The notes beneath the pieces were generated by a model that saw only the letters and a program-made list of their open reading frames with translations, did no database searches and was not told the DNA's origin. The position numbers were made by a program, and so were the translations under genes. From an uncultured Planctomycetaceae bacterium (GTDB lineage: Bacteria; Planctomycetota; Phycisphaerae; SM23-33), in the NCBI GenBank assembly GCA_964385465.1, contig CAYLPJ010000003.1, forward strand, positions 148,626-212,625: a stretch of 64,000 bases of DNA, read 5' to 3'. Below are positions 19,701 to 58,900 of this stretch, piece by piece (position 1 is the first letter of the stretch; every line of letters begins with the position of its first letter).

Positions 19701-19930
19701 GGCTGGCGCATACGATCCTTTGTACGCGAATCTCACTTCTGCCCAGGTCAGTTGGACGACAACCGAGATACGAGGGCCACCTCGATCCCCGCTGCGCCGG
19801 CTCCTCCTTGGAGGAACCCTTCCAGCCAGCGCCGATCCAGCACGTCCGGCCGATCTCCATGGCGGTACCGCCCCGTTGCGGCGCGCAGGGTTTCGGTCTC
19901 GATGTACCCGGAGGTCTTCACGGACATAGA

Positions 19931-19936
19931 AGGAGG
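19931..19936 (+). promoter_or_regulatory. Shine-Dalgarno AGGAGG for the giant gene
   Basis: AGGAGG lies 7 nt upstream of the ATG at 19944. Confidence 0.5.
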
Positions 19937-19943
19937 CAGCATC

Positions 19944-37900: not shown

Positions 37901-40900
37901 CGACGACGACAAGCGGCTGAACAACTTCATCCAGGGCGTTCCCGGCACCATGGAGACGTTCGCCGACGGCGGGGTCATCGAGATCATCACCAAGAACTCC
38001 GTCGTGCTGGAGGGGCGTACCTTCGTCCAAGGCGAGGGCGCGCGGGTCACGATCAAGCCGGGCACCTTCTTCGAGCTCGTGCAGATCGCCGGGCAGATCA
38101 GCTCCGCCGATGCCGACAGCCTCATCGAGATCGAGGCCCCCGAGGCCGTCTACGTCAACGGCGAGGTCCTCGCCGGCGTCGAGTGGCAGGGCGGGGTGAA
38201 GGTCGTCACCGGCGAGGGCGCCGACGTGACCGTCAATACCCCGCACGAACTGCGGATCTTCGGGGCCATCACGTCCACGGACGTCATGGAACTGACCGGC
38301 GGCGCCGACCAGGACTGGAACGAGCGCGATCCGCAGGACGCCAGCATTCACCTGACCGGGCAGCTCACCTCGCTCGACGACAACCGCCTGCTGAAGCTCC
38401 AGGGCCCCGACGACGTCCTCGTCGAGGGCAGCATCTTCGTCCGCGGGCGAAACAGCGGCCTGCTCATCGACTCCGGTCAGCGCGTCAAGTTCGCCACCAG
38501 CTTCGTCGAGGTCGAGGACGGCATCGACATCTACGGGCGGGGTGAGTCCACCGACGTCGACACCGGAATCACGTCCAGTGTCTTCGTGGACGCCACGGCC
38601 GTCATCACCAGCTTCCAGAACGGCAGCAACATTCACATCGAGGGCGCCGGGGACGTGGACATCCTCGGCACGGTCCTGGCCGGCGGGGCGATCGGCCCGA
38701 CGGGCGTGACGTGGTCCGGCACGGACAGCGAGGCGGTCGTCACCGCCGGCGAGCAGGTGTACGTGGACAGCGGCATCCTCGCCAGCGACACGGTGACGGT
38801 CGTCGGCGGCCCGGCCGGCGAGGACGACGCCAGCCTCGACCCCGCCAACGACGGGCTGGCCCCGGCTGACCAGCGCCGCGTCAGCGTCGTGGTCACCACC
38901 GCCGGCGGCATGACCGCCGCGGGGCGCACCTCCGACGGCTCGGCCGGGCTCATCCGCATCTTCGGCGCCAGCGGCGTGGAGATGATGGGCCACCTCTACA
39001 GCGGCGCCACCAAGGGCCTGCTGTTCGACGGCGAGGGCAACCTCATCAAGGAGATCATCGACTGGGAAAGTTCCGTCGGCGGCGACGTGTCCATCGAGTC
39101 GCCCGGGCAGGTCTTCATCGGCGGTTGGGCCGAAAACCAGGCCACCGAGGTCGTCCTCGACAGCGACGTCACGCTGCATATCATCCTGGACCCCGACGGG
39201 TCCCCCACGCCCGGGAGCATCACTCTCGACGCCGACGACACGACGAACTTCACCCGCCTGCACGAGTTGCGGCAACTCGTCTCCGATGCCCTGACGGCCG
39301 AGTTCGGCGGGGACATCGACGTGCAGATCGAAAACGACCGCCTCGTGTTCGTGGCGGACCAGCCGTTCACCATGGAGTCCACCAGCACCAACGCCGACCT
39401 GCTCGGCCTCGGCGGCGGGGACCTGGAGGGCAACGAGGTCGTCCCCGACGCGGAGATCGCCGCCGACGTCGCCCCGCCGAGCATGGCCCTGAGCTCCGAC
39501 GCGACCCTCGTGCTCAACGACGGCGAAGGCGACGCGCTGGGCTCGATCACCGTGACCGCCGCCGAGACGGCCGGGTTCACGCAGCTCAGCGAGCTGATCG
39601 CCTTGTTGAATGACAAGCTCAACGACGCGGGGCTGACCGAGATGCTCGCCCGCGACGGCGGCGGGTTGCTGGCGCTGACCGGCGAGTTCGACTTCGAGAT
39701 CGACGAGACCTCCTCGAACGCCGACCTGCTGGGCTTCGACGCCGTCGCCGCCCCGGCCACCGTCGCCAGCGCGCGCGACGCCTCCACCTGGGAGGTTACC
39801 GCGGTGCACTCGCTGTTCGGCAGCGTGGTGGAGACCGGCGGCTACATCGCGGCCAGCGACACCATCTCGCTGTTCAACTGGGACACCGCCGAGCACCCGT
39901 ACATCGGCGGGGAGGTGGGCGTCCGCATCCAGGGCTCCAGCGAGTTGACCACCCACGAGGACGAGAGCCTCATCGAGGTGGACTCGAAGCTCGACGCCGA
40001 GATCGAGGGACACCTCATCGCCGGCGGCGAGGTCGAGACCATCCGCGACGCCGAGACCGGCGGGTTCATCGGCTCGAGGCTGATCGACTTCGGCACGGAT
40101 ACCGACGACACCGAGATCGACATCCAGGCCGAGCACCAGGTGCGGATCGGCACGACGCTGAAGGCCGGCGGGAGGATTCACGTCGTCGGCGGGGACGACC
40201 CCGTCGAGGGCGACCCGGGCGACCCGTTCAACTTCACCGGCTCCAGCGTCCTGATCTTCGGCTCGGCGAAGCTGGAGACCTGGGGCGAGAACAGCGCCAT
40301 CGACATCGAGGGCACCGGCGACATCAAGGTGCTCTCGCCCACGCACTTCCACGAGGTCGAGCCCGAGGAGTGGGCCAAGGGCCCGCGGGCGTTCCTCGTC
40401 GGCGAGGGCCAGTTTGCCCTCGGGGGCGTCCTGCCCGCCGACGTCACGCTCGACATGCGCCGCCGCGACGGGTTGGGCGGGTACCTCACCGAGTCGATCA
40501 CCCTCTCGGCCGGAGACTACGCCAACGATGCCCTGATCGTCACCTCCCTGGAAGCCGAGTTCGCCGCCAGTACGGACTTCACCGACGTGCAGGTGAGCAA
40601 CCCGGGCCGCTACCTGGTGCTGGATGCGCCGTACGACTTCGACATCGAAAGCACGTCGGTCAACCTCGACCTGCTGGGCCTTGCCAGCGTGCAGACGGCC
40701 CGGGTGGTCTATCCCGAGGCCCGGGTTGTCGGCGACGTGAACATCCCGACGACCGGTCGGCTGGTCGAGGATGTGGTGCTGGACCTGAGCATGGACGACG
40801 GCGTCGGCGGGACCATCGACGATACCGTCACCATCGCCGCGGCGGACACGACCGGCCATACCACGCAGGCCGAGCTGCTCACGACGATCAACACGGCCCT

Positions 40901-43900
40901 GGACGCCTCGGCGTTCGCGGACATCGACGCGGTGCTGCGCGACGGCAAGATCGTGCTGACGACCCTCGGGCTGGACTTCACCGTCAAGGGGACCTCCCAG
41001 AACGTCAACCTCCTGGGCCTCCGCGGCGAGTGGGAGACCGAGGAACTCCGCGATCCGGCCGTGCTTACGCCAGCCAGCGACGCTCCGACCACCGGGCAGC
41101 TCATCCGCGACCTCGTGCTCATCATCCGCATCGAGGCGACGGACCTGGAAGACGAACTGCTGGGCGCGGTGATCGTCTCCGCCGCCGACACGACGGACAA
41201 CACGACGCTGGTCGACCTGGTCACCGACATCAACAACGAGTTGACCGGCACGGACGTGCCCCGGTACGTCGGCACGCGGACGTTTGGAGACTACCTCACC
41301 GCGTCGATCCGCGACGGGAAGCTGCTGCTGACCGGCACGCACGAGTTCAAGCTCAGGGAAGCCTCGCAGGCGTTGGAACTGGTCGGCATGGACTCCGGCG
41401 AGGAACTGCCCGCCACCGAGATCTTCTTCGACGCGATCCTGGCCGCCGACGTCGACCTCCCCGCGGCCGTGCTGACCGACCCGGTCACCCTCGACCTGAT
41501 GGTCAACCGCAACGGCTCGGTGACCGAGGACACCGTGACGGTGCCCGTGGACGGCAGCAACTCGACGCTGGCCGACCTGGTCGCCGACGTGGACGCCGCC
41601 CTGACGCTGGCGGGCTTCGGCGATGTCGAGGCCGAGCTCGAAGGCGACCGCCTGGAGCTGGTCAGCCACTGGGAATTCACCGTCAAGGGCACGAGCACCA
41701 ACGCCGACCTGCTGGGCCTTACGACCGTAGACGGCGGCGCGGACGTGGCCGCGTCCCGCCAGGCGTCGATCTTCGAGCTGCTCGGCCCGCGCGACGTTCC
41801 CACCACCGGCGTCCTCGCCGAGGACGTGGCGCTCGAGGTCGAGGCCGTCGACAGCGACGACGTGGTCACCGCGGCGACCGTCACCGTCGCCCGCGAGGAC
41901 ACGCTGGGCAACGCGAGCATCGCCGAGCTGGCCGCGACCGTCGGGGCCGCCTTCGCCGAGGCCGGACTGGACATCCAGGCCGCCGAGGACAGCGGCACGA
42001 TCGTGCTGAGCAGCCTGACGGTGGACTTCGAGGTCTTCACCACCAGCGAGGCCGCCGACCTGCTGGGCCTGACGGACGTCCATGGCGGGTCGGACGTCTC
42101 CTCCGACCGCCCGGACGCCACCTTTGAGCTGGTCCCCGACGACGAGCTCTGGTCCACCGGCGTGCTGCCCGACAACGTCGAACTGGCGATCACACGGGCG
42201 CTGGAGGACCCCAACGACGACCCGGCCCACATCAGCCCGGACCTGCCCGAGGAGATCGACCGGGACGAGGATAACGTGGTCACCGGCACGGTGACGATCA
42301 GCCGTTCCGACACGCTGGACAACACCGCCGGCAGCGAGGCCGACCGCCTGGAGGCTCTCGCCGAGGACATTACCGCGGCGTTCATTCGCGACGGCTTCCG
42401 CCAGATCACCGCGTCGGTTGACAGCGGTAAGATCGTGCTGTCCAGCCCGTATGCGTGGTCGATCGGTGAGGAATCCGCCGAGACCGAGCTGCTGGGCATC
42501 ACCACCGTGCCGACGCCCGAGCTCGAGGCCGAGCGCCCGCCGGAGACCTACCAGGTCACCGGCGTCGACAGCATGATCAACGGCGTGCTCGACGACGACA
42601 TCACGCTGGACCTGTCGATCGACGACGGCGGCGGCGGGACATTCGACGGCGAGGTCAGCCTGCCGGCCTCGGCGACCGACGGGACCGACAGCGGCACCAG
42701 TGCCAATGCGGGCATCGCCGATCTCGTCGCCGACCTCAACGCCGCCCTGGCCGATACCGAAATCCCCGGCCACCCGGGGCAGTTCTTCGGCGACGTCATC
42801 GAGGCGGCCGCCGTCGGCGGCTTCGACGCCAGCGCCGGCGGGGCAGGTGTCGGCTCGGCTGCCGACGCGACCGGGCGGATCGTCTTCGTCGCCGACGAGG
42901 CCTTCACGCTGACCGTCGACGCCGCGGACAGCCTCGATCAGCTCGGCTTGGCCAACGGCACGCAGAGCTCGGCCGCGACGGACCCGGACTGGGAGGTCGC
43001 CGCCTCGGCGGACCTGCCCTCCGACGGCGTGATCACCGGCGACGTGACGCTGCGGGTCACGCTCGACGACGGCGGCTCGGACCTCGACTTCACGGTCACG
43101 CTGCCGGCGGTCGACACCACCGCCAATACCTCGGCAACCGAGCTGCTGCTGGACCTCCAGACCGCCTTGGCGGCCACGGAAGTCCAGGACGTCAGCGAGG
43201 CCGAGTCCACCGGCTCCTACGCCAGCCAGTTCGTCGTCACGCAGATCCGGGACGGCAAGCTGGTGCTGGTCAGCGAGCTGGAGTTCGAGATCGACGGCGA
43301 CGCGTCATCCAATGCCGCCCTGCTCGGCCTGGCCAGCGTCTCCCCGGGCAGCGACGTGGCCTCGGCCAAGCCGCCGGTCCGGCAGGAGCTCCCGGCCGAC
43401 AACGTCCTTCCGCCGCGGCGCTCGTTCACGCAAGACGTGGTCTTCGACCTGCGGATGCTGCCCGAGAATCTCATCGCGAGCATCCCGGTCAACGAGTACG
43501 AGGTCACCGTCGCCGCCGCCGACACCGAGAGCAACGCGGACATCGACGACCTGGTCGCCGACATCGACGACGCGCTGCTGGCCGCGATCGGCAGCCAGGA
43601 TGTCTGGGCGCAGTACCAGGGCGGCAAGCTCTCGCTGGTCAGCTACACGCCGTTCCAGCTCGAGTACTCCTCGGAGAACGAGGGGCTGATGGGCGTGACG
43701 GACATGCCCAACGAGCTCATCGCCGCCAACCGCGCCAGCCAGGACGGCGAGCTGCCCGAGGACGTCACCCTCGTGGTCTGGGTGAATCTGGGCACGAAGA
43801 AGATCGTCGGCGAGGTAACCATCTCCGCTGCCGACACGGCCGACAACCCCGCGGGCAATGGCATCACGGACCTGCTGAACGATATCCAGGACGCGCTGAA

Positions 43901-46900
43901 CGGCGCCGTGCCAGGCGCCATCAGCGGCGGCAGCTATTACGACCTGGACGGCAACCCCTACGACCCGGCGGACTTCGCCGACGACCCGGTCACCACCGGC
44001 GGGATCGCCGACCCGCTGATCCGGATGAAGCTCAAGCACGGCAAGCTGCTGTTCACCAGCCAGTACGAGTTCCGCATCTTCGACGAATTCACCAACCCGG
44101 CCAACCCGACCCCGGCGCTCCAGCACCTCGAAAGCGCCAACGTCCAGCACCTCGGGCTCGACTCGGTCGCCGACGGCGACACGGCCGTGTCCAGCAGGCC
44201 CTTCAACATCCTCGCGCCCGCCGCCGGGTCGGAGGTGAGCTTCACCTCGACCGACGCCGGCGCGGAACTGTACATCGCCGGGGCGGTCAAGAGCGACCGC
44301 ATGATCCAGATGTCCGGCGGGCCGGAAGGGCTGGACCTCGACTGGTCCGGGCTGCTGGAGACCGTCGACGGGCCGATCGATCTGGACCTCGGCACCAGCG
44401 GGCACCTCAAGGGCGACCTGACCGCCGGCGGCGACGAGGGCGACGTGATCCTCGCCGCCGACGACACGCTGCTGATCAACGGCATCATCCGCGCCGACCG
44501 TGACATCGACCTCTCGGCCGGGCACGCGCTGGGCGGGTCGGCTTCCACCGACAGCATCACCATCGACAAGACCGCCTGGCTGGTGACGACCGGCCCCCCG
44601 GACCTGGATCAGCAGGTCACGGTGGACGGCTACAAGCGGGTGGTGGTCGACGGGCCGATCGGCTCGCAGCAGCTCGACGAGCCGCGGATGCTCGGCGACA
44701 TTCACGTCGTCAGCCAGACGCACGACGTGGTGATGACTGCCGAGTCCGGCTGGCTGGAGACGGACGGGCGGATCGTCGTCGAGGGCGACACGGTGGATGT
44801 CGCCGGCGTGATCAAGAACGGCGACACCTCGGCCCCCGCGCCCGCAGACCCGAGCAACCCGCTTGCCGAGAACTTCGAAGTCGTCCTCGACGCGGACACC
44901 GTCGTGCTGCTGACCGGCGACGTGGACGCCCTCGGCTCGGTACTGATCGACTCCCCGAACGCGATCCAGATCGCCGGGTCCGTCGAGGCCGGCGGGATCG
45001 AGACGTTCGAGTTCATCACCGAAGACCGCGACTTCCTCACCGCCGCCGACGAGCAGGTCCGCGTGCTCGCGCCGGGCATCACCGTCGGCGGGGTGACCGC
45101 AACGGTCGAGGCCGGCCAGGACTGGCCCGATACCGACGACGACAGCAACCCCGACCTGACCGTCGGCGACAGCTACCCGCTGGGCGGCACCGTCGTCGGC
45201 TCGGGGCAGGTGCTCCTGCTGGCCGGCGCCGGCGGGATCGAGGTCGCCGCCGCCAGCGAGGTCCGCACGCGAAGCGACGACAGCGAGATTACCCTCCAGG
45301 GCGACTTCATCGATATCCTCGGCTCGCTCTACGCCGGGGCCGAGCGCGGCCGACAGGCCGTCGGCGAGGACCCCGAGGACCTCACCTGGCTGGGCGAGAG
45401 CGCGGGCATCACGCTGGACGCGGCCGAGATGGTCACCTTCGGCGGCGAGGACACGGCCACGGACCTGGACGTCTTCAACGGCTTGGCCGACACCGAAGGC
45501 GAGACGATCACGCGCGGCGGCTCGGCGCGAGCGACCGGGGACGTGGTGATCACTGCCGACGAATCCGGGGACCAGCTCGTGCATATCAACGGGCTCAGCG
45601 CCATCGTGACCGACGCCGAGGCGGTCGCCTCGCCGAGCCCGGGCGCGGCCAGCTCGGTGGACATCACCGCCGGCGACGGCGTGCAGGTCCACGGCGTCAT
45701 CCAGGGCCTCGACCCCGACAGCGACGTGACCATCGTCTCCGGAACGGGCCTGCTGCTTGTGGACGGTTTTGTCGAGGGCGGGCGGGACGTCACACTCACC
45801 GGCGCGACGGCCGGCGACCTCAGCGTGCTGGTCACCAAGCTGCTCTACGAGACCAAGACCGAGACGGTGCCCACCAGCGACGGCGGCAGCGGCGAGTTCA
45901 ACCTGGACATGAACGGCGACCACGTCGACGACTACGGCTTCCTGCTGGAGGTCAACGGCTCCGACGAGATCGTCGTCGACGGCAGCGGCCAGCCCGTCCG
46001 CGTGACCGAAGGCGGCGTCGAGCAGCTCGGCGAGGGCATCGTCTATCTCGTCGAGGACGAAATGGGCGATCCCGTCACCGTGGACAAGGAGGGCCACGAG
46101 CTTACCGAGCACGCCGGCCGGTACTTCCTCGTAGACGAGGCCGGGCAGTTCCTCGACGACCAGGGGCGCGTGATCAACGAGGACGGCCAGCTCCTCGATG
46201 CGATGGGCCGCCCGGTCAACGAGGCCGGCTACCTGATCGACGCCAACGGCAACCTCATCGACGAGTTCGGCGACGCCATCACCATCTACGGCGACCGCGT
46301 CAACGCCGACGGGCTGCTGCTGGACGTCAGCGACAACCTGATCAGCCCCGATGGCTGGCGGATCAACGCATCCGGTGAGTTGGTCAACGCCGGCGGCATG
46401 CCGCTGAACGGCGTGGGCGAGATCCGCACCGTCGTCGAGATCGACGGGACGGACTACCTCGCCGACGAATACGGCAACCTCGTGGACGACGAGGGCAACC
46501 TCATCGACGAGGACGGCTACCTCATCAACGAGCGCGGCGAACGGATCACCGCCGACGGCCGACCGCTGACGCACCTCGACGATCCCGTCGAAGGCAGCGA
46601 CCGCGTCGAGAACCCGCCGACGCCGGAGGCTCCCGTCGCCGGCGACGACCGCAAGACCGGCGGGAGCATCCAGGAGGGCGACGCCCTCAAGTCCACCACC
46701 GGCTTCGTCATGGTCGACCTGCCCCAGCGCCGCGGCGGGGGCGTGGTCAACGGCACGGGGCCGGCCTCGACGGTTACCATCACCGGCGACCACGACGTGG
46801 AGATCCACGGCATGGTCGGGCAGGTGTACCTCGACGAGGGCACCGCCGCCCCGGCCGTGGACACGGTCGAGGTGACCATCACGTCGTCCGAGGACGTCAC

Positions 46901-49900
46901 CATCCTCACCGACGCGCTCGTCAACGCCCGGGACGGCGTCGAGGTCAGCGGGGAGAACGTCTGGGCGCTGGACGAGAGCGTCACGATCACCCGGGCGGAC
47001 CACTCCCGCACGGCGTTGACGGCGACCGGCACGCTGCCGGACGGTGGGACGATCCACGTCGCCCGCAGCCAGATCTACTTCTTCCGCGCGTTGGTGGCCT
47101 CGGCGGGCGAGGTGGAGCTGACGGGCAAGGAAATCAGCGTGTACGGCACGGTGGAGGTCGAGGGCAGCGAGCGCAACGGCGACGGCGACCCGGCGCGGGC
47201 ACGTCTCCAGGCCGACCGCAACGTGGTCGTCCGCGGCGAGGTGCTCAGCGGGGCCGACATCGACATCGACGCCGGGCTGGTCGATCCGACCGGCTGCGTG
47301 GTGGTCTCCGCCGAGGGCAGGCTTGCGGCGGGCTATGGCACGGAGGCGGTCGGCGACATCATGCTTGACGCCGCCGGCGAGGTGACGCTGCTGAGCTACG
47401 ACGACGACGCCAACGACGACCTCCAGTTCGCCGCGCCGTACGTCACCTACGAGCCGGTGTTCGTGGACGTGGTGACCGGCTTCCGGCGCGTCGAGGACGG
47501 CTTCATCCAGCGCCCGGTCGTGCACTACATCCCGACGATCACGACCGAGCAGACCGGCTTCATCGACGTGAAGGTCGGCAGCGAGTTCGGCAGCGCCGAG
47601 GTCCGGCTGTTCCAGGACGGCTACTGGTCGGACACGGCCCCGGCGGACGAGCGGTTCCGCGAGTACTTCATTCCGGGCGTGGACTACGAGATCGACGACC
47701 TCGACTGGCCCGGCAAGGCCCCGGACGAGAACCCGGGCCTGTATCGCAAGGTGGCCCCCGGCGAGTACGAGCTGATGGACACCTCGACGTTTGACCTGAT
47801 CGGCGAGGTCACGAACTACGGCGGCCCGCCGATCGACCCGGGCACGACGTTCGCCCAGGGCGTGACGATCGACGGGGCGGTCAACGCCGTCCGCCAGGAC
47901 CGCACGCCCACCCTCGGCGGGCTCTTCTCGCCGGGCAGCACCACGGTCGGCGGCGGGGAGCTGCCTCTGCTGACCGGCCAGTTTGCCGGCGAGGAGTCGG
48001 TGAGCTACGCCGACGTGCTGACCACCATGGAGAGCGAGGTCTACCTGGTGATCGACGATGTCTTCGTCCAGCAGACCTACAAGCCGTGGGACGAGCTGAC
48101 CGCCACCGAGAAGGCCAACGCCATCCTGGATCACCTCGGCTACCGCAAGCTGTTCGACGTGCGGTTCCTCGAAGAATTCGAGAAGACCGTCTATATCACC
48201 AGCCCGAACGACCGGTTCGAACTGGAGCGCGACTCGGCCATCACGGACCGTTTCGACGGCAAGACGGTCAACGAGATGGTCGAGGAAGAGAACGCCACGC
48301 GGGTCAAGGGCGTCAACTTGAGCTTCGCCGACGGCGAGTCCGTGGTCGCCCTCGACGAGCTGGCGGCGCTGAATGCCGGCAACGGTGAGTTCGCATTCAC
48401 CGAGGCCTCGCCGGCCTTGGAAGGCGTGACCTTCCAGGACAGCGGTGGCGAGAAGAAGTTCGTCCCCGGCGTGGTCGTCGACGGCGTCTTCCGCGTCACG
48501 CCCTCCGACAACCTGGCTATCCGGCCGGACTGGTCCGTCACCACCGACAGCTACACGATCACCAAGAAGTACTTCGACTTCTGGTTCCCCGAGTTCATCC
48601 CCTTCGACCCGGCCGTGCATTACGACCCCGGCGAGCACGCCAGCGTCGAGGAAGCGGCCTACCGCCATTGGACGCCACCGTCGGAGATGGTGGACGAGGT
48701 GCTGGACGGCGTGCCCCCGGAGGACCACGAAGAGGCGCTGGAGGAGTTCAGCGAGCAGTTCTTCATCGCCGGGCGGGACTACGACGAGGAATACGCCAAC
48801 CCGGCCAAGGAGGACAGCGGCGACTACATTGCCAGCTTCTTCGAGCGGGAGGACACGATCCTCGCCGACGGCGACTGGGAGAAGGTGTACGGGACCGAGA
48901 CGTCGCTGGGGCGGATCAACCGCAACTTCGAGGGCATCCCGACGGTGCACCTGTGGGAGACGGACCTGACCGATCAGGACCGCGAGGTCTTCGAATACAC
49001 GCTGGACGACGGCACGGAAATCTTCCTGCGGGCGCCCGAGCAGTGGTGGAGCGAGTACGAGGTCACCGCCCTGGGCAACGACCGCGTGGACCCCGACGAC
49101 AAGAAGCTCCAGTATGTCGGCAACGTCGAGACGTACGACGAGGAGGTCGGGCAGATCCGCGAGGTCGCCCAACTGGAGTACATCCAGGAGTGGTCCTCGG
49201 CCGTGCCGCATAAGCCGAGCAACCCCGAGGAAGGCGACCTGTGGGTCGTGGATGACTACGACGACAGCCCGGGACGCTGGGTGGTCTACCTCCGCGACGA
49301 CCCGCACGAGGTCTGGCCCGACGGCGATCCGACGGCCTACGAGCAGTACAGCATCAACGACGGGCGGTCGGTCAGCGAGTTCGACCCGCCGTATGCCGAC
49401 ACCGTGTTCACCGGCTTCTACGGCCTGCTGGCCGACGCGGCGTTCGCGCCGCTGGCCGCCGGCGGGCTCGAGCTGACCGAGGCCTTCCTGCCGGAAGGCA
49501 CGGTCGCCAGCCTGGTCACCTACGACAACTCGGTGAAGCTCGATTACGACTTCGAGGACTGGGACACCGGCGAGCCGGGCACGGTGGACGACCAGGGCAG
49601 CGTCTCGGGCTTCACGGGCGACAACTGGGCCGAGGGCACGGACGCCAACGGGCGGCTCGTCTACGGGCAGATCAACGCCGGTGACGAGGAGGACGGCCTG
49701 GCCGTCGCGCAGACCAACATCAACCTCGAGCAGTTGAACGACGATCCGCGCACCGAGCACGACGTCGCCGAGATGCGCCGCTACGAGGGGCGCGACTACT
49801 ACCTGACCATCGGCCACTACGACTGGTACGAGGCCGGCAACGTGCGAAGCTGGCCGTGGCATCTGGCGGTCGTCAACGACGCCGCCGAGAACGCCCTTAT

Positions 49901-52900
49901 CCGGGACATGATCTCCGCCGCCGACACGTCCGCCTGGCTGGGCGGGTACGACCTCAACGGCGTCAGCCACAACTCATGGTCCATGGAGTGGGTCCACGGC
50001 TCGGGGATCAGCAACGGCTCGGGCTACAGCAACTTCCACCCCTCCGAGCCGAACAACGAGGGCCCGTACAACGACGAAGACCACCTCCAGATGTGGACCA
50101 GCGGCTACTGGAACGACCTCAACGCGGTCGAGGAGCTGCGGGCCGTGCTGGAACGCGAGCCGGACTGGGGCGACCCGTTCGACGGCGACGAGACCCAGCA
50201 CGACTTCATCTACAAGATGACCACCGACTGGCGGGCTATCGAGGACGTCCGCTCGGACATCACCTACCGCGCGTTCACCGAGGCCCACGACATCATCGAC
50301 AAGCGCCCGCGGTACGAGACCATCGAGTCCGAGGTCCCCGTCATCAAGATGGAGCAGGTGACCAACTGGACCTACGAACCGGTCGTCGAGCAGGTCCTCG
50401 ATTTCGCCAGCAGCGCCGTGCCCGCCGACGGGCCGGGAAGCCTGGCGATCTTCGACCGCCAGGCCCTCTCGGCCACGGGCGACATCACCATCAACGCCGG
50501 CTCCGACGTGCTGGTCCGCTCCAGCGTGGCCGCCGGCGAGACCGACGGGGCCATCTCCGTCAACTCCAGCGGCGGGGCGGTCACGGTCGGCACGGACATG
50601 CCCGCCGAGCCGAAGCTGTACGACATGATCCACCTGACCGCCGGAGAGGCGATCGACATCGACGCCGCGGGCGGCGCGGTCGAGATCGGCGCCACGGCCG
50701 AACTGCGGACCGAAACCGACGCCCCGGCGCCGCCGAACGGCAACAGCGGCGGCGAGCCGGTGCAGGATATCTCCGTGGACGCCTCCGATGCCGTCCGCAT
50801 CGACGGACAGGTCGCCGCTCGCGACAACGTCGCCGTCACCGCCGCGGCCGACGTGACCCTCACCAGCAGCCTCCAGGCCGTCAACCTCATCGCCGCCGAG
50901 GCCGGCAACGGCGGCGGGGCCGGCACGGTCTTCGTCCACGACCCCGACGCGCCGCTCGACGGCGAGTTCGACGAGGACGACCAGAGGCCGGCGATCGGCG
51001 GCTTCCTCACCGTCACCGGCACCGACGGCGAGATCCGCCTGACGGCCGGCGCCGCAGGTGGGGACATCTCCCTCATCGACGCCGAGTTGGAGGCCGACCT
51101 GATCACGCTGTCGGCCCCGGCAGGCGAAATCCTCCAGCCCGCGGCCGTCACGCCTCCGGGCGATGGGGACACGCCGACCACCGGCGGGCAGCTCCGGGCC
51201 GTGACACTCGACGCCGACGCCGGCGCGGGCATCACGCTGGAGAACCTCCACGTCGGCGAGGTCACCGCGGTCGTCACCGGACCCGGCGACGTCGTGCTGC
51301 ACGACACGGATCTGGCCGGCGTGGCCGGGGGCGCCGATCCCGCGACGGCCGGGCTGGACCTGGTCAACGTCCGCACGGCCGACGGGTCGATCGACGTGAC
51401 GGCCCTGGGCAGCGGCCTGGTGGCCACGGACGTCCGCAGCCTCGGCGGCGGGGACGAGGACGACGTGACGCTCAACGCCGAGATCGGCGCCGGGGGCTCG
51501 ACATCGCTGACGGTGCACCACGTCGAGGCTGCCGGGGATGCAGACGTCTTCCTGAACGTGCAGGGCCAGCTGATCCAGCCGGACGGCTCGGTGAGCGCCG
51601 ACGAGGTGACGGTCCAGGCCAACGGCGCGACGGAGATCCACACGCAGGCGTCGTCGATCGACATCGACCTGGCCGCGCCGGGCAGCCTGGTGATCGTCGG
51701 CGATTCGCCGACGCTGACGCTGGCGAACGTCCGCGTGCTCAACGGCGACTTGACGGTCATCAACGCCGGCGACATCGACGCGCAGAACGTCGAGCTGGTC
51801 ACCGATTGGAACACCTCGAAGGTCCCGCCGGAGGCGAACGTCATCCGCCTGGAGACCACCGAGGGCAGCGGCGGGACGATCACCGTCGGCAGCATCGTCG
51901 GGGGCACCTACGCCGCCAGCGAGGCCGAGGCCGACGCCATCCGCCTGGACATGCTCAACTCGATCCTGCGGAAGATCGATCCCGCCGGCATCCCCGCCGA
52001 GTTCCTCACCGACGGGACGGACGGGGAGGGCGACCCGATCCAGTTCGTCGAGCTGACGCAGCCCGAGGCGGACGACCTGGCGGCCATCGTCACCGACGAC
52101 TTCGCCGCCGATGGCGAGCTCATGGCCGCCGCCACGGCCTTTACGATGTACAGCCGTGTGCTCGACGTCCTGGGCGTGGCCTACGAGGGCACGTACGAGG
52201 AGACCGACGAGCAGGCCGTCGAGGACGAGGCGCGGTCGCTGTTTACGCTCAGCCGCGGGCTCAGCTCGGCCGGGCGCGTGGAACTGTACTCCGACGGCGC
52301 CATTACCAGCCCCGTGCCGCTGGCCCCGCTGGGTGCCGGGCCGATGCCGCCGTCCAACGGCGTGGGCATCGTGGCCGACACGCTCGTCGCAGTGGCCGGG
52401 TCCGACATCACCGGCCTGACCACGGCGGTCAATCGGATGGAGGAGGTCTGCTCGATCGGCGGGTCGGCCTCGGACGTCCGCGACGTCGACGGCATCGGCG
52501 AGCTCTCGCCCGGGGTGAAGGTCGACCTGGCCGAGGCCCTGGCCGGATCGCTGGCGATCACGGCACAGAACGCGCTGATCGTCACCTCGGTACGGACGCC
52601 GGCGTCCGACGCGCAGTTGTCGCTGACCAGCGAGCTCGGCGGGCTGTTCGTCGAGCGCAACGGCGGGGGCAACGCTTTGGAGTCCGGCGGCGGGATCAAG
52701 CTGGAGACCCTTGCGGCCGACCGGGACCTGACGGTCACCGGCCACGTCCAGGCCGGCGGCAAGCTGGAGTTGGCCACGCGGGGCACCGTCAGCTCGCTGG
52801 GCCAGGGCGTGGACCTCGACGTCGGCGACCTGTCGGTGGACTCCGACAGCTCGGTCGTGCTGTCCGGCGAGTTCAATACCCTGGGCGAGGTGGACGTCGT

Positions 52901-55900
52901 CAGCGACGGGAACATCGCCCTCAGCCAACTGGATGAGGCCTTCGAGGGCTTCCGCGTTTCCAACCAGCGGTTCTCGCTCCAGCAGCGAATGCTCCAGACG
53001 CTGGGCGACAACCTCGATGCACAGATTGACGCGCTCTCGACATACCAGGCCCTGATGGCCGCCGCGGCCAGCAGGGAGGCCGGCCAGGGCGACGTGCTGA
53101 GCACGCTCGAGGCCCAGCAGCTCCAGCACCTCGTGCGGATGCCGCTGGAGCTCCAGCATCAGCAGCTTCAGACGCAGCTCGCGGACCTCGGCAGCCTGCT
53201 GGAGGTCCAGGACCAGTTGCCGGATACGCTGGGCGAGATGGAGGGCTACGATCAGATCGTTCAGCAGCGCGACCAGGTGACCGACCAGCTTCAGAGCGCT
53301 CAGAGCACCCTTGGGCAGGTCCGGACGGACCTGCTGGAGATCATCGGCGATACCGACGACCTCGTCGCCGACCTGGAGGACGTGCAGACAACGATCGCCG
53401 ACCGTCAGGCCTATCGCGACGGGCTCGGCGGCGTGCTGAGCGACATCCAGGCGGAGATCAACAGCCGCCCGGACTACACCCCGCCGGCCCTGAACGGCGG
53501 CGAGGAAGGCGCGCCCGACCTCAGCCTCGACGCGCTGAACAGCGTGGACCTCGACGAGCTCAGCGACGAGCAACTCGGGCGGCTCCACCACGACGTCCAG
53601 GGCGTCGCCGACGAGGTGGACGGCGAGCTCCAGGACCTCGGCCAGCAGGTCGAGACGCTCCAGGACCAGATCCACGCCAACCAGGGCGACCTGGCGTTCG
53701 TCCGCGAGGACCTCTCGGCCGTGCGGGACACGGTGCAGGGCCTCGGCGGTCAGCTCGACGCCCTGGACGCTCAGATCGCCGCACACCAGGCCGCCCTGGC
53801 CGAGATCGAGACGATCATCGGCCTCAGCGATCCGGCGGCCATGGACCCGGCTGTTCGCGACCTGGACGACAACGCGGACGTGCTCAGCGACACGATCAAC
53901 AGCGGCGTCGACGCGCTGCGCGACCAGCGCCTGCTCGAGACCGTCAACGCCAGCCTGGCGGACGTCAACAGCCAGATTGCCCGCGTCAATGATGCGATCG
54001 ACGCCGTGGCCCCGCTGACGGACACGACCGACTTCGGCGTGCTGGACTCGGGTATCCGCGGGCTGACGGCCTACCAGGACGTGCTCAGCGGCGCCATCCT
54101 GGACGGCATCGCCGGCCTGCCGGACCGGACGTACTCCGAGCTTCAGGCGCAGGTCGCGGACGTCATGGCGGATATCCAGCAGGTCGACCAGGCCCTCGCG
54201 GCCCTGGAAGCCATCCAGGGCGCGTCGGGCTTCGCCGTTGTCGACCGCAACGTCCGCAGCCTCGCGAGCGTCCAGGACCTGCTGACGCCGACGTACCAGC
54301 AGATCGTCTCCGACGTGACCGCGCTGCCGACGTACTCCAACCTGCTCGAAGAGATCGGCACGATGCAGCAGCAGTTGGAGCAGGAGCGGCCACTTGACGA
54401 GGTCCAGGCCGATCTCCAGCAGGTGGGCAAGCAGCTCGACACCCTCGCTGCGGAGATCGCCCCGATCGAGCTCCAGTTGATCAAGCTCGCCTATCGCTAC
54501 CTCAGCCACCAGAAGCGCGACATCCTGCCGAGGGTGATGGCGTGGCACGACGAGATCGGCAACCGCCTGGGCGGGCGCGTCGGCAGCCCCGAAGACGTGG
54601 AGCCCGATCCCGAGGCGTTCCCCATCGACTGGGACTTCTACGATCTCGGCCGGATCCACGGCTTCGATGCCCATCTCGACCAGATGGACGACGAGCAGTT
54701 CGGCAAGTTCCTCGACGGGCTGGAGCCCGCGGAGCTGGCGGCTGTCCAGGACGTGCTGGCCACCCAGGCGAGCAAGTCCGAGGGCCTGGACAAGGAGCTT
54801 CAGGACCTCGACGCCGCCGGCGGCGCCGACCCGTTGGACCCCGAGCTGCCCCAGAACCGGTTCGACCTGCTGCCGCAGTGGGAGCAGTTGGACAAGCAGC
54901 GCGACGATCTCCTGCTCCAGCAGGCCGACCTCCAGGCAGAACACGACCGTATCGTCGCATTGCAGGACCAGTTGGATGCCCTGCAAGGCCGGCGTGACGA
55001 CCTCGAGGGCGCCCTCATCAGCGCCCAGGAGTTCGCCTTCAGCGAGGCCGACAACCTCCAGGGCATCCGCGGAGGTCTCCAGGAGCAGCTCAACGGTCTG
55101 AACACCGACCGGCGGAATCACGAGGGCCAGCTCAGCGACCTCCAGGGCGACCTGTCCCCCGAGTTGAGCCGTCTCTACGCCGAACGCGAGGACCTCACCG
55201 GCCAGCGGAACACGCTGGAAGCCGAGCAGGGAACCGTCACCGGCTACATCTTCGGGGTCGTGGAGTTCCTGCCCGGCGAGCAGAGCCGCCTGAACGAGGC
55301 CCTCGGCGGCATCCAGCAGCAGCGCGAGGCGGTCAACACGCAGTACCAGGACGCCTTGGCCGAAGAGAGCACGTTGGAGCAGCAGGAGACGCAACTGGTC
55401 GCCGAGCGGGACACGCTCCAGACGCAGGTCACGCAGATCGAGGAGGATATCTCCGGCTACCAAACCACGCTGGAGGACCTGGACGACCAGGAGGCCGCGC
55501 TTCAGACCGAGCTGGACGGCATCCTCCAGACGAAGCAGACCGAGCGCGTCGGCCTGCGGGACGACCTGGTCGGGGTCCAGCAGCTCCAGGCCGACTACGC
55601 TCTCGTCGCCCAGGATTTCCAGTCGCTCCAGCACGGGCTGAACCTCGGCGCGATGGCCGGGGAGTTCCGCGGCAACGTCCTCGATGACATGCAGCGGATG
55701 AGCCGGCTCCGCGCGGATCTCGAGCAGATGCGCCAGACGCAGGAGAGGCTGGAGTACGGGCTGCGGCGGACGCAGATGGGCGGCGACGGGCTGACCAGCA
55801 TCAGCATTCGCGCCCAGGGCTTCAGCGAGCAACTGCTCTCGGCCGGCGTGGAGCTGTCCCTGGCTCAGCCCGGGGACGACTCGGAGGACCCCGGCGACAA

Positions 55901-58900
55901 GGTTGCCCAGGACGACTTCTCCGGCTGGTACCTCTACACGCATTCGGACACCGAGCAGACGCACTACCGCGACGCTCGGGGGACCGAGAACGACATCGAG
56001 GACGACGTCTTCCGCGTCCGCGAGTTCAGCCCGTTCTACGTCGACGAGCAGGCCTACTACCGGCGGCTGGACGACGTCGACGCCACGCCGGGCGAGCTCG
56101 GCGACGACGAGGAGACGTTCTACGCCTGGGACAGCGCCGTGCTGGAGACGTTCTACGTCTTCGACGGCACGTACTCGGTGCAGAAGTTCGCCGGTACGAC
56201 CAGCGAGGAGCGCACCGAGGTCCGCCCCGACACCGGCGAGGAATTCACCTTCACCATCGACAGCCCGCTCTACGACGTGCACGACTACCGTGCCCACTTC
56301 CTCGCGGACTCGCCCGATACCGAGTTTGCCGACGCCGAGCTGTTCGTCACCAGCGACGACGAGACCGGCGAGCACGTGCGGGCCTTCCAGGACATCCTCG
56401 ACGACCTGTCGGCCGAGCTGGGCGAGGAAGGCCGGCTCATCGTCCTCTACCCGGGCCAGACGCTCGATGACCTGGATGTCGGCGAGGTCACCGAGGATGA
56501 CATCCTGGTGACCTTCCTGGACTTCACGCCCATCTACCGGCAGGTCTCCAACAGCGAGATCGCCTTCGACGACCCGCAGTCCCACGGCGAGCAGGTGTTC
56601 GAAACGCTGCCTTCGCTGCTGACGGAAGTCTACCGCGGCGGCGTCGAGCTGCTGCCTGTCGAGGCCCCCGAGGCCGGCAACGTCTTCACCGGCGGGCTGC
56701 GGGCGTCCGCATCGGAGCTGATCGAGCTGCTGGCGACCGACCGGCTGACCGGGCTGGAGACCAACGCGCTGCTGTCGGCGCCGACGGTGCGGCTGGCCAG
56801 CGGCGACGTCCTGGAACTCGGCGGGCTCATCCTCGCCAGCGAGTCCGTCCAGGTCGATGCCGGCGGCGGGCTCGTGTTGTCCGAGGACGCCCGCGTCAAG
56901 GCCGGCGCCGTGAACGTCAACAGCGCCTTCGGCGACGTCGTCGGGCGCCAGGGCAGCGTCATCGAGGCCGACACGGTCGATGTCTTCGGCGCCGGGATGG
57001 TGGACATCGTCACCGACGCCCGCGCCGTGGCCGCGTCGGCCGGCCTGTCCGGCGACGTGGTCGTCACCAACATCGGCGACGATCCGGTGACCGTGGAAAC
57101 CCAGACCGACGGCGGGACGGTGGATGTGCGGTCCGATGGCACGATCCAGGCGGGCAACGTCGCCGGCGGCGACGTCTCCCTGATGGCCGGCGGCCGCGGC
57201 GACGTGCTCATCGGGCAGGTCGACGCCACCGGCAACGTCACGCTCGACGCCGCACGCGGTATCGGGTCGTACACGCCGCCGCCTCCCAACGGGCCGCTCG
57301 TGCCCCTCATGGCCGAGCCGCGGCTCAACGTCGGCGGCGACCTGAACGTCATCGCCGGGCTCGGCGCGGACCTGCCGGGCGGCACGGTCGGCGGCGAGAG
57401 CTCCGTTACCGACAACGTCAGCCTGGTGATCGACTCGCTCGACGACCTCCCGGCCACGGGGCCGGCCCACATCGCCGTTGACGGCGACGTGGTGATCGAG
57501 ATCGCGCTGACGCTCCACTACGACCTCACCATCGAGGCCGACAACATCATCTTCTCCGGCGCCGGGGCGATCCTGAATCCCGGCGGCGAGACCAGCCTCA
57601 AGGCCGACGGCGCGGTCATGCTCAACGGCATGCCCTCGCAGGACAACGACGGCGGGAAGGAGGGCACGGTCGTCCTGTCCGGCGAGAGAGTCTCCATCGA
57701 GGCGGCCGAAGTCCTCGGCGGCGGCGAGCGGCTCATCCGCGCCGACCTGCTCCGCGTCGTCACCGAGACGGACCTGGCCCTGATGACCGACGTGGACACC
57801 CTCGAGGCGATCATCACCGGCCGCGGGGACCTTCGCGTCGAGGCGGGCGGCTCGATCGAGCTGCGGGACGTGCAGGTGCACGACGGCAGCGTGATCGTTG
57901 AGGCCCCCGGGGACATCGTGGCCACCGGCGTGGTGTTCGGGACGGACCGTTACGCCAACCGCCTGAGCCTCCAGGCCGGCGGGGAGCTGACGCTGGGCAA
58001 CGTGGTCGTCGGGCGACTGATGGGCACCGAGCTCGAGACCGGGGCGGGGCTGACCAACGCCGGCGGCGTGCTGGACGTGGAGGTCACGCAGGACGACGAC
58101 AGCGTCGTCGAGGACCGGCCCGGCAGCTTCACGGCCCGGGTGACTGACCCGACGCACACCTACGAGCCGGGCGAAACGGTCGAGATGGGGATCGAGTTCG
58201 GCGACGGCTCCCAGCAGATGCTGGACGTGGACGTCGCCGGTCCCCGGGTCGAGGTCATCGGCCCGCCGAGCGAACGGTTCGGCGGCGTGCAGGACTACAG
58301 CGGCATGGGTGAGGCCGTCGTGCTGGCCGACGTCAACGCCGACGGCCTCGCCGACCTGATCCTCGGCGAGGGCCGCCACGACCTGCCCGACGCCGAGGAC
58401 ATCGGCCGAGTGCAGGTCCGCCTCGGCTCGCCCGACGGCCTCGTCGACGACCCGCTGACGCTCTGGGGCAGCGAAAGCGACGACGAGTTCGGCCAAAGCA
58501 TCGCCGGCGGCGACGTCAACGGCGACGGCGTCGACGACATCATCGTCAACGCTCCCGGCTACACGAGCCTGCGGACCACCACCACCGTCCAGCCGGACGG
58601 CACGGTGACGGTCGAGGAGTTCGAGGTCGACGGCGGGTTGTTCGTCTACTACGGCTCGGACGCCGGCCTGAGCGTGGAGCCGTCCTTCGTGCAGCTCCCG
58701 GCCATCCAGAGCATCGCCCCGGCCGGGGACGTCAATGGCGACGGCATCGACGACATCCTGGCCATGGACCCCTCGGCGGAGGTCGACCGGGTCATCGACG
58801 GAGAGCTGGAGACGCTCCCGTTCGCCGGGCGCGTGACGCTGCACCTCGGCTCGGCCGAGGGCCCGGCCGCCGAGCCGGTCTGGAGCTACGAAGGCAGCGA

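What the first reader, a model, noticed from the sequence alone, without database searches (positions are those of the whole stretch)
49780..50140. Cysteine-less canonical C-type lectin domain with intact EPN/WND Ca2+-sugar site embedded in the giant protein
The segment reproduces the long-form animal CTLD signature, including WIGL-like 'AWLGGYDL' and 'W.W..GS'. The 'NFHPSEPNNEGPYNDEDHLQMWTSGYWNDLNA' block parallels mannose-binding-protein '[30 protein letters not shown]'. All five Ca2+-site-2 ligands are conserved (E-P-N, Glu, N-D of WND), and EPN predicts Man/GlcNAc/Fuc-type specificity. The conserved disulfide cysteines are replaced (EDH for EDC, LNA for VPC), in keeping with the almost Cys-free composition of the protein (I spotted only about three Cys in ~13.6 k residues). 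A Ca2+-dependent lectin head on a Planctomycete giant fibre, next to sulfatase genes, suggests polysaccharide or host-glycan attachment.
Basis: partly seen in the sequence, partly recalled or inferred. Interest (0 to 1): 0.75.

Follow-up and report, generated by a model that had tools for sequence, protein, structure and literature searches.

The report
Disulfide-free C-type lectin domain in giant protein
A real C-type lectin domain of the animal kind, without any cysteines but with its calcium/sugar-binding residues intact, sits at a fixed internal position in a 13,705-residue surface protein of a Planctomycete; it is a well-supported but not unique example, because cysteine-free C-type lectin domains turn out to be common in bacterial genomes.

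Summary

All five Ca2+-site-2 ligands are present (EPN, Glu, Asn-Asp of WND). All four canonical cysteines are replaced. The whole protein has 3 Cys.

The domain is conserved at the same position in colinear giant orthologues from at least four phyla. The binding loop is its best-conserved part. Two orthologues carry QPN or QPD instead of EPN.

The most likely function is a Ca2+-dependent glycan-binding adhesion module. This is inferred, not shown.

The domain is internal, not a "head". It lies inside a ~650-aa conserved core of unknown modules. The sulfatase genes are 15-19 kb upstream of the giant gene, behind unrelated operons.

Cys-free EPN/WND lectin domains are widespread in bacteria (84 of 352 related copies), so this is a new member of a known kind. 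Interest is moderate.

The parts
19752..60869 (+). Giant ORF of 13,705 aa. TTG is the first possible start; Met codons are at aa 51 and 65. Acidic, Gly/Leu/Ala/Val/Thr-rich, 3 Cys.
   Evidence: ORF list. Composition and Cys count. GC3 is 0.945 in this frame. It is colinear with giant ORFs in 8 genomes over thousands of residues.
20055..20078 (+). N-terminal 'LEPRLLLS' motif (aa 102-109). It resembles the N-terminal motif of Planctomycete extracellular proteins; this is from memory only.
   Evidence: Sequence read. There is no Pfam hit for the N-terminus, so the motif assignment is untested.
35655..35741 (+). RTX Ca2+-binding nonapeptide repeats.
   Evidence: Pfam HemolysinCabind, 32.5 bits against a cut-off of 23.
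48729..49421 (+). Highly conserved unannotated module upstream of the CTLD (aa ~9660-9890).
   Evidence: 68% mean column identity across 9 orthologues. No Pfam hit and no PDB sequence hit.
49770..50156 (+). Cys-free long-form C-type lectin-like domain (aa ~10007-10135).
49935..49946 (+). 'WLGG', the equivalent of the CTLD WIGL motif.
   Evidence: Aligned to WIGL/WIGG columns of other CTLDs. Coordinates.
49968..49970 (+). Conserved His10073 at the position of the Ca2+-site-1 Glu of other CTLDs.
   Evidence: Alignment A2. His is kept in 15 of 16 orthologues.
50046..50054 (+). EPN tripeptide (Ca2+ site 2 ligands Glu and Asn; the Man/GlcNAc/Fuc-type motif).
   Evidence: Aligned to EPN of SP-D and CD23. 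EPN in 14 of 16 orthologues, QPN in L002, QPD in P0004.
50076..50084 (+). E-D-H. The Glu is a site-2 ligand. The His replaces the Cys of 'EDC' (canonical Cys 2).
   Evidence: The Glu is invariant in orthologues. The Cys-2 column holds Y/C/F/H in 352 related domains.
50109..50126 (+). W-N-D-L-N-A. The WND Asn and Asp are site-2 ligands. The Ala replaces canonical Cys 3.
   Evidence: WND is invariant in orthologues. Column statistics.
50142..50153 (+). 'AVLE' beta-5 strand. The Leu replaces canonical Cys 4 of 'xCE'.
   Evidence: Alignment A2. The Cys-4 column holds C/V/I/M/L.
50199..50381 (+). Most conserved stretch of the region, directly after the CTLD (aa 10150-10210; '..DITYRAFTEAHDIIDKRPRYETIESEVPVIKMEQVTNW').
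   Evidence: 0.69-0.81 identity to 8 orthologues. No Pfam hit.
53214..55751 (+). Coiled-coil-like region.
   Evidence: Weak NCBIfam hits to SMC/Rad50 coiled-coil segments, far below their cut-offs.
58899..59561 (+). FG-GAP (integrin-alpha-like) repeats, 4 copies.
   Evidence: Pfam FG-GAP, 113 bits. Sequence.
59850..60260 (+). Ig-like (Big_5) domain followed by a dockerin-type-I-like segment. Both are just below their Pfam cut-offs.
   Evidence: Big_5 21.3 bits (cut-off 23.6) and Dockerin_1 21.0 bits (cut-off 22.9).

Best explanation
Window ~49770-50156 encodes a genuine homologue of the animal C-type carbohydrate-recognition domain (Pfam Lectin_C, long-form CTLD fold). It has lost both canonical disulfides and kept the complete Ca2+ site 2: Glu10099 and Asn10101 of EPN, Glu10109, and Asn10121 and Asp10122 of WND.

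It is one fixed module of a ~650-aa conserved core (aa ~9670-10240). That core belongs to a 13,705-aa, almost Cys-free, Ca2+-binding extracellular fibre protein of a Planctomycete. Colinear orthologues of the protein occur in several phyla.

The most likely mechanism has three steps. A Ca2+ ion is held by the five site-2 side chains. That ion ligates two vicinal equatorial hydroxyls of a Man/GlcNAc/Glc/Fuc-type sugar. The fibre, and hence the cell, thereby attaches to a polysaccharide or glycosylated surface, as lectin modules do in other giant bacterial adhesins.

What is shown: homology, predicted fold, presence and conservation of the ligands, absence of cysteines, and fixed position in an orthologous family. 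What is inferred: Ca2+ binding, sugar binding and its specificity, extracellular location, and adhesion.
For: Homology:
- Pfam Lectin_C is above its gathering score for the isolated domain.
- 46 PDB sequences are hit at E<=10 with the single sequence, all but the weakest (a nanobody, E 1.5) animal C-type lectins, and 107 at E<=0.001 with the orthologue profile; the best is CD23 at 2e-14.

Fold:
- The AF2 model built on a 38-sequence alignment has pLDDT 90 and pTM 0.86.
- Foldseek gives TM 0.75-0.84 to the MGL, ASGPR and SP-D CRDs.

Site 2:
- EPN, Glu and WND align with those of SP-D and CD23.
- Across 16 distinct orthologues, the Glu and WND are invariant and the tripeptide is EPN in 14. The other two carry QPN and QPD, the classical Gal-type motif.
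- The 30-aa block holding the site is the best-conserved part of the domain: 0.63 identity against 0.33-0.38 for the N-terminal half.

Not a recent insertion:
- GC3 is 0.955 in the domain and 0.945 in the gene.
- The position is the same in colinear orthologues.

Extracellular, Ca2+-rich context:
- RTX repeats, FG-GAP repeats, and Ig-like and dockerin-like segments.
- 0.02% Cys against 0.92% in neighbouring proteins.

Functional precedent: the Ca2+-dependent PA14 lectin module of the 1.5-MDa Marinomonas adhesin binds sugar diols through Ca2+ (PMC8092209).
Against: - No binding experiment exists for this domain. I found no paper characterising any bacterial Lectin_C domain in the library I could search.
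- Both canonical disulfides are absent, so stability rests on the predicted hydrophobic replacements. These come from a model only.
- Helix alpha-1 is reduced to about one turn in the model.
- The auxiliary Ca2+ site 1 is probably altered: Glu is replaced by a conserved His.
- The domain is internal and flanked by more strongly conserved modules of unknown function. It may act as part of a larger unit whose role is not adhesion.
- No secretion or anchoring system for the protein was identified in the window. The adjacent HlyD-type protein pairs with an RND pump, not an ABC exporter.
- The AF2 model was built from an alignment of CTLDs, so the fold match is not independent of the sequence homology.
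Confidence: 0.6

Rival explanations
1. The domain is a true CTLD that binds Ca2+ but serves a non-sugar role. It could be a structural or Ca2+-stiffening module of the fibre. It could be a protein-, mineral- or ice-binding surface. It could be a docking partner for the strongly conserved flanking modules. Many animal CTLDs bind non-carbohydrate ligands.
For: - The flanks (aa 9670-9880 and 10150-10210) are more conserved than the CTLD itself. The CTLD is never found apart from them in the orthologues.
- The protein has other Ca2+-binding elements (RTX).
Against: - From established knowledge, non-sugar CTLDs generally lose the EPN/QPD and WND ligands. Here all five are kept across phyla and form the conservation peak of the domain.
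- The only tripeptide substitutions seen are QPN and QPD, which are sugar-type variants.
- The best structural matches are Ca2+-dependent CRDs.
Confidence: 0.25
2. The lectin binds the organism's own glycans (its envelope, holdfast or exopolysaccharide, or glycosylated copies of the same fibre). It would then anchor or cross-link the fibre into a matrix, rather than attach the cell to foreign or host polysaccharides.
For: - The position is internal rather than at a terminus.
- The C-terminus carries FG-GAP, Ig-like and dockerin-like anchoring or interaction modules.
- A small PEP-CTERM protein, of a class linked to exopolysaccharide-producing bacteria (from established knowledge), is encoded 62 nt downstream.
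- The orthologues come from free-living environmental MAGs of several phyla, so a 'host glycan' is not an obvious common target.
Against: Nothing in the sequence distinguishes self from foreign glycan targets. No glycosyltransferase or EPS cluster lies next to the gene.
Confidence: 0.12
3. It is the variable C-type-lectin-fold ligand-binding domain of a diversity-generating retroelement (DGR) target protein.
For: DGR targets commonly end in a CLec fold, and giant surface proteins can be DGR targets (PMC11661182 abstract).
Against: - No template-repeat copy of the CTLD DNA exists in the 64-kb window. The longest other matches are <=43 nt at chance level.
- No reverse transcriptase is among the neighbouring genes.
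- The domain is internal. It is of the canonical long-loop Lectin_C type with a Ca2+ site, and its binding loop is conserved rather than hypervariable among orthologues.
Confidence: 0.01
4. The resemblance is a chance or compositional artefact, or the reading frame is wrong in a 69% GC sequence that is full of long spurious ORFs.
For: The single-sequence Pfam score is only ~2 bits above threshold and falls below it in longer queries. Long antisense ORFs overlap the region.
Against: - GC3 is 0.955 in this frame.
- The orthologue profile reaches E 2e-14 against solved CTLDs.
- 56 relatives score at E<=1e-10 in the exhaustive search.
- The domain is conserved in 16 orthologues.
Confidence: 0.01

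Closest known systems
Animal Ca2+-dependent C-type carbohydrate-recognition domains of the EPN type (collectin-11, SP-D, MBP-A, DC-SIGN, langerin; Pfam PF00059 Lectin_C)
   Same: - Homologous sequence.
- Same WIGL-like, EPN, Glu and WND motifs in the same columns.
   Different: - No cysteines at all, so neither the alpha1-beta5 nor the beta3-loop disulfide can form.
- Helix alpha-1 is shortened in the model.
- The Ca2+-site-1 Glu is replaced by a conserved His.
- There are 3-4 extra residues in the loop before the WxW strand.
- The domain is embedded in the middle of a 13.7-k-residue bacterial protein, not next to a collagen, neck or transmembrane segment.
Other bacterial Lectin_C-domain proteins (PEP-CTERM lectins; multi-CTLD proteins of cyanobacteria, Alphaproteobacteria, Phycisphaerales and Myxococcota)
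   Same: - Same family. Many are likewise Cys-free with EPN/WND: 84 of 352 copies in the 150 best cluster representatives.
- Examples occur in Fulvimarina, Leptothoe, Leptolyngbyaceae, Micrococcales and Phycisphaerales genomes.
- PF00059 is already precomputed on such proteins.
   Different: - Those are short secreted or PEP-CTERM proteins, or tandem CTLD arrays. They share only 25-36% identity with this domain.
- This one is a single copy, locked between two unique conserved modules of a giant fibre.
- The Myxococcota examples keep 5-8 Cys per domain.
Lectin modules of giant RTX/fibrillar adhesins, e.g. the PA14 domain of the 1.5-MDa Marinomonas primoryensis ice-binding adhesin
   Same: - What it works like: a single Ca2+-dependent sugar-diol-binding module carried by a megadalton, Ca2+-binding, repeat-rich, Cys-poor surface fibre (PMC8092209).
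- RTX repeats are present here too.
   Different: - A different fold (PA14 beta-sandwich against CTLD), so there is no homology.
- RTX adhesins are exported by a T1SS encoded nearby. No ABC exporter is in this window.
- Here the lectin is about 3,570 residues from the C-terminus.
Compact bacterial CTLDs (intimin/invasin C-terminal domain) and DGR CLec variable domains
   Same: They belong to the same broad CTLD fold superfamily and are used for ligand binding on bacterial surfaces (PMC8286594; PMC11661182).
   Different: From established knowledge, those lack the long loop region and the Ca2+/sugar site, and they are C-terminal. This domain has the long loop, the full site 2 and an internal position, and it shows no DGR signature.

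Membership tests
Pfam Lectin_C (PF00059) / long-form CTLD | Significant sequence match to the family profile | tested here: met
   24.8 bits against a 22.6 gathering score for the isolated domain, but 22.4 and 18.1 bits within longer queries. The orthologue profile hits 107 solved CTLDs, best E 2e-14.
Pfam Lectin_C (PF00059) / long-form CTLD | Double-loop alpha/beta fold with a long loop region | tested here: met
Pfam Lectin_C (PF00059) / long-form CTLD | WIGL-type hydrophobic core motif and WxW/G strand | tested here: met
   'WLGG' at aa 10062-10065 and 'W-SME-W-VH-GS'. Trp and Gly are invariant in orthologues.
Classical animal C-type CRD | Four conserved cysteines forming two disulfides (alpha1-beta5, beta3-loop) | tested here: not met
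   There is no Cys in the domain. The four positions hold V/R, H, A and L. It is therefore a homologue of the family but not a classical disulfide-bonded CRD.
Classical animal C-type CRD | Ca2+ site 2 ligands: E/Q-P-N/D, Glu, and Asn-Asp of WND | tested here: met
   E10099, N10101, E10109, N10121 and D10122 are aligned to those of SP-D and CD23 and conserved in 16 orthologues.
Classical animal C-type CRD | Auxiliary Ca2+ site 1 (Asp, Glu, Asn/Asp, Asp) | tested here: inconclusive
   Asp10067, Asn10102 and Asp10110 are present, but the Glu position is a conserved His10073. From established knowledge, some functional CRDs such as the selectins lack site 1.
Classical animal C-type CRD | Ca2+-dependent binding of mono- or oligosaccharides | not testable with these tools
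   This needs recombinant protein with ITC or glycan arrays, with and without EDTA.
RTX / T1SS giant adhesins | RTX nonapeptide repeats | tested here: met
   Pfam HemolysinCabind, 32.5 bits, at window ~35655-35741. The repeats are mid-protein, not C-terminal.
RTX / T1SS giant adhesins | Adjacent type I secretion genes (ABC exporter, MFP, TolC) and a C-terminal secretion signal | tested here: not met
   The only MFP (9901-11160) is next to an AcrB-type RND transporter. No ABC exporter is in the 64-kb window. The C-terminus carries FG-GAP, Ig-like and dockerin-like segments instead.
Fibrillar adhesin (stalk plus adhesive domain) | Long repetitive stalk with at least one known adhesive domain | tested here: met
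   There are about 13 k residues of mostly unannotated beta-rich or repeat sequence, plus Lectin_C and FG-GAP domains. The definition is as in PMC8286594.
DGR target protein (CLec variable domain) | VR/TR repeat pair and a nearby reverse transcriptase | tested here: not met
   There is no second copy of the CTLD DNA in the window and no RT among the neighbours.

The most novel reading that the evidence does not exclude
The module is a functional, disulfide-free Ca2+-dependent carbohydrate-recognition domain. It forms the glycan-binding part of a previously undescribed ~650-aa ligand-binding core that defines a cross-phylum family of >13,000-residue 'hypothetical' fibre proteins (Planctomycetota, Spirochaetota, Desulfobacterota, Eisenbacteria). 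Natural EPN/QPD switching would tune Man-type versus Gal-type specificity.

If true, three things follow. It would be the first experimentally tractable bacterial C-type CRD. It would show that the animal C-type sugar-binding mechanism works without disulfides. It would assign a function to one of the largest conserved bacterial proteins.
Probability: 0.4. Interest if true: 0.55.

Novelty: new member of a known kind. Interest (0 to 1): 0.4.

Why it matters
C-type lectin domains are textbook animal immune and adhesion receptors, and their two disulfides are considered hallmarks. This case, and the many relatives found alongside it, show that bacteria carry the same Ca2+/sugar-binding architecture with no cysteines at all.

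It gives the first functional handle on a giant protein family that NCBI annotates only as 'hypothetical protein'. It suggests how Planctomycetes and other environmental bacteria may tether themselves to polysaccharide-rich particles or matrices.

A disulfide-free CRD could be produced in the bacterial cytoplasm, which would be useful as a lectin scaffold.

The domain family is known, and Cys-free bacterial members are numerous in databases. The advance is therefore incremental unless binding is demonstrated.

Tried and rejected
1. Single-sequence AlphaFold of the 164-aa piece gave an unusable model (pLDDT 37). It was replaced by the alignment-based model.
2. The word-indexed homologue search with the single domain found nothing. 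The exhaustive HMMER search was needed.
3. The afdb50 fold library was unavailable, so I could not list annotated bacterial AlphaFold neighbours.
4. DGR hypothesis: no TR-like repeat and no RT. Rejected.
5. Second CTLD copies in the giant protein: none.
6. Functional link to sulfatases: rejected on gene order.
7. T1SS/RTX-adhesin membership: RTX repeats are present, but no ABC exporter is in the window and the MFP belongs to an RND pump. Not filed as an RTX adhesin.
8. Identity of the conserved flanking modules: no Pfam, NCBIfam or PDB sequence hit.
9. Source record: the exact-sequence look-up shows an NCBI contig of 281,740 bp, but its name was not retrievable. Taxonomy was inferred from PDH E1 homologues.
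10. N-terminal 'LEPRLLLS' as the Pfam Planctomycete-extracellular motif: no Pfam hit. It is left as a recollection only.
11. Literature searches for a characterised bacterial Lectin_C domain or a CTLD in giant bacterial proteins found nothing relevant. The Zelensky & Gready review is not held.

Full report
**1. What is in the sequence.** Window 19752-60869 (+) is a single open reading frame of 13,705 codons. The window is 69% GC. GC3 in this frame is 0.945, which marks it as the coding frame despite long antisense ORFs. The product is acidic and rich in D, L, G, A, V and T. It has exactly three cysteines (aa 9182, 10900, 13698; 0.02%), whereas ten neighbouring proteins average 0.92% Cys. 'SAWLGGYDL', 'NSWSMEWVHGSG' and 'NFHPSEPNNEGPYNDEDHLQMWTSGYWNDLNA' are all there. 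EPN is at 50046-50054, EDH at 50076-50084, WND at 50109-50117 and LNA at 50118-50126. The literal pattern 'W.W..GS' is not matched, because three residues separate the two Trp. The aligned columns are nevertheless the usual CTLD ones.

**2. Is it more than chance?**
- The isolated 164-aa piece scores 24.8 bits (E 3.7e-5) against Pfam Lectin_C, above the 22.6 gathering score. Inside longer queries the score falls to 22.4 and 18.1 bits.
- phmmer against all PDB sequences returns 46 hits at E<=10. All but the weakest, a nanobody at E 1.5, are animal C-type lectins; SP-D is best at 1e-5. EPN, ED and WND are aligned residue for residue.
- An exhaustive HMMER scan of 1.84 billion cluster representatives gives 458 relatives at E<=1e-3 and 56 at E<=1e-10.
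- A profile of the eight closest sequences hits 107 solved CTLDs, the best being CD23 at 2e-14.

The homology is secure.

**4. The binding site and the cysteines.** I aligned 352 CTLD copies from the 150 best relatives to one HMM. The window residues fall in these columns:
- E-P-N: E 263/352, P 349/352, N 290/352.
- The site-2 Glu: E 270/352.
- W-N-D: W 352/352, N 284/352, D 340/352.

All five Ca2+-site-2 ligands are therefore present. The four canonical Cys columns hold V/R, H, A and L in the window. The auxiliary site 1 is less clear. The Asp, Asn and Asp positions are there, but the Glu position is a His (aa 10073). That His is conserved in 15 of 16 orthologues.

**5. Orthologues and conservation.** The closest relatives are fragments of the same kind of giant protein. 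Scanning species-representative genomes found the module, with its flanks, in eight MAGs:
- an unclassified bacterium (67% identity);
- two Planctomycetaceae;
- a Thermoguttaceae;
- an Anaerohalosphaeraceae;
- a Spirochaetota (217-kb contig);
- a Desulfobacterales (497-kb contig);
- an Eisenbacteria.

Three metagenome contigs add to these. In every case the ORF fills the fetched 8-21 kb and has 0-11 Cys. BLASTP shows colinearity with the window protein over 2,000-5,000 residues. NCBI calls these proteins 'hypothetical protein'.

In 16 distinct orthologues the CTLD is Cys-free; one has a single Cys. The site-2 Glu and WND are invariant. The tripeptide is EPN in 14, QPN in one and QPD in one. 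From established knowledge of MBP-A mutagenesis, EPN to QPD is the classical Man-to-Gal specificity switch.

Along the protein, the CTLD lies inside a ~650-aa conserved core (aa ~9670-10240). Within the domain, the block carrying EPN...ED...W is the most conserved (0.63 identity). The N-terminal half scores 0.33-0.38. This is the pattern expected if the Ca2+/ligand site is under selection.

The flanks are even more conserved. Upstream, mean column identity is 68%. Downstream, identity is 0.69-0.81. Neither flank matches anything in Pfam, NCBIfam or the PDB sequences.

**6. Context.** The rest of the protein contains:
- RTX nonapeptides;
- a coiled-coil-like stretch (weak SMC/Rad50 hits);
- four FG-GAP repeats;
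- an Ig-like segment and a dockerin-like segment near the C-terminus.

There is one CTLD only. It sits at 73% of the chain, so it is not a terminal head. The domain's GC3 (0.955) equals that of the gene, so it is not a recent import.

The organism is a Planctomycete: the nearest named PDH E1 homologues are from Planctomycetota and Pirellulales MAGs at 62-73% identity. The contig is an NCBI record of 281,740 bp.

The two sulfatase genes (489-3236 +, 3263-4618 -) lie 15-19 kb upstream of the giant gene. A GNAT, a phosphatase, an RND pump with its MFP, an epimerase, a lipoate ligase and the PDH E2/E1/E3 genes separate them from it. No functional link can be drawn, especially in a phylum known for many sulfatases (PMC12673574). 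No ABC exporter is present, so a T1SS/RTX-adhesin assignment is not supported.

**7. How unusual is it?** Not very, at the level of the domain.
- Of the 352 related CTLD copies, 105 have no Cys. Of those, 84 also keep a full site 2; they come from 56 proteins.
- Bacterial genomes with Cys-free EPN/WND CTLDs include Fulvimarina isolates, the cyanobacterium Leptothoe spongobia, and Leptolyngbyaceae, Micrococcales, Phycisphaerales and Sedimentitalea MAGs. Myxococcota copies retain 5-8 Cys.
- Several relatives have PEP-CTERM tails and already carry precomputed PF00059 annotation.

What I did not find is any paper characterising such a bacterial domain, or noting a CTLD in giant Planctomycete proteins. 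Reviews mention giant genes only in general terms (PMC12673574; bioRxiv 10.1101/2023.11.21.568195).

**8. Mechanism.** The best-supported reading is a Ca2+-dependent glycan-binding module. Site-2 Ca2+ would bridge the protein and two vicinal equatorial hydroxyls of a Man/GlcNAc/Glc/Fuc-type sugar. This would attach the fibre to a polysaccharide or glycosylated surface, as the unrelated PA14 lectin does in the 1.5-MDa Marinomonas adhesin (PMC8092209).

- Shown: homology, predicted fold, ligand conservation, Cys-free state, and fixed place in an orthologous family.
- Inferred: Ca2+ and sugar binding, specificity, surface exposure, and the adhesion role.

The rivals are:
- a non-sugar Ca2+/structural or protein-docking role within the conserved core (0.25);
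- binding of the cell's own glycans for matrix anchoring (0.12), which is a variant of the main model;
- a DGR target, rejected because there is no TR copy and no RT;
- chance or a wrong frame, also rejected.

The absence of cysteines fits the whole protein and its orthologues. It probably reflects export or folding constraints on giant extracellular proteins; that is an inference.

**9. Verdict.** The 'head' and 'sulfatase neighbour' claims are not. By homology the domain belongs to the Lectin_C family. It fails the classical disulfide criterion, as many bacterial members do. It is a new member of a known kind and of moderate interest (0.4). The interest would rise if Ca2+-dependent sugar binding and the role of the surrounding conserved core were demonstrated.

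Noticed in passing
window 48729-49421 and 50199-50381: Two unannotated modules flank the CTLD and are more conserved than it across phyla. Upstream, mean column identity is 68%. Downstream, in '..DITYRxFTEAHDIVDKRPRYETI..VPVIKMEQVTNW', identity is 0.69-0.81. Neither has a Pfam, NCBIfam or PDB sequence match. Together with the CTLD they form a ~650-aa conserved core of the giant protein.
   Followed up: partly
L006 (Spirochaetota MAG, 217-kb contig), L007 (Desulfobacterales MAG, 497-kb contig), L008 (Eisenbacteria MAG), P0006 (Methanomethylicaceae archaeon bin, 5.6-kb contig): Colinear orthologues of this >40-kb gene sit in bins assigned to different phyla, and one in an archaeal bin. This means either cross-phylum transfer of a giant gene or mis-binning. 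NCBI annotates all of them as 'hypothetical protein'.
   Followed up: no
window 60931-61563 (+): A 210-aa ORF lies 62 nt after the giant gene's stop. It ends in a PEP-CTERM-like tail ('ITPEPAALAVLAAGAVGLLRRRRHRAA'). It has no Pfam hit, and no homologue appears in the fetched orthologous loci, which mostly run off inside the giant ORF.
   Followed up: partly
window 49968-49970 (His10073): A His conserved in 15 of 16 orthologues occupies the column of the Ca2+-site-1 Glu of other CTLDs. This suggests an altered or absent auxiliary Ca2+ site.
   Followed up: partly
L027:3001-4056 and P0008: The loop between EPN and the site-2 Glu tolerates large insertions in orthologues: ~45 aa in L027 and 'FWSWWPW' in P0008. 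EPN, Glu and WND stay intact, so this is a possible specificity-determining loop.
   Followed up: no
window 53214-55751 (+): A long coiled-coil-like, Q/L/E-rich segment lies downstream of the CTLD (weak SMC/Rad50 NCBIfam hits). It is also visible in orthologue P0001.
   Followed up: no
window 20055-20078 (+): A 'LEPRLLLS' motif lies near the N-terminus. It is reminiscent of the N-terminal motif of Planctomycete extracellular proteins (from memory), and Pfam did not detect it. The true start codon of the giant gene (TTG 19752, or Met at aa 51 or 65) is unresolved.
   Followed up: partly
window 489-3236 (+) and 3263-4618 (-): Two divergently arranged sulfatase genes. The first ORF (915 aa) has its sulfatase domain only in residues 475-907, so its real start is probably further downstream, or it carries an unannotated N-terminal region.
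   Followed up: no
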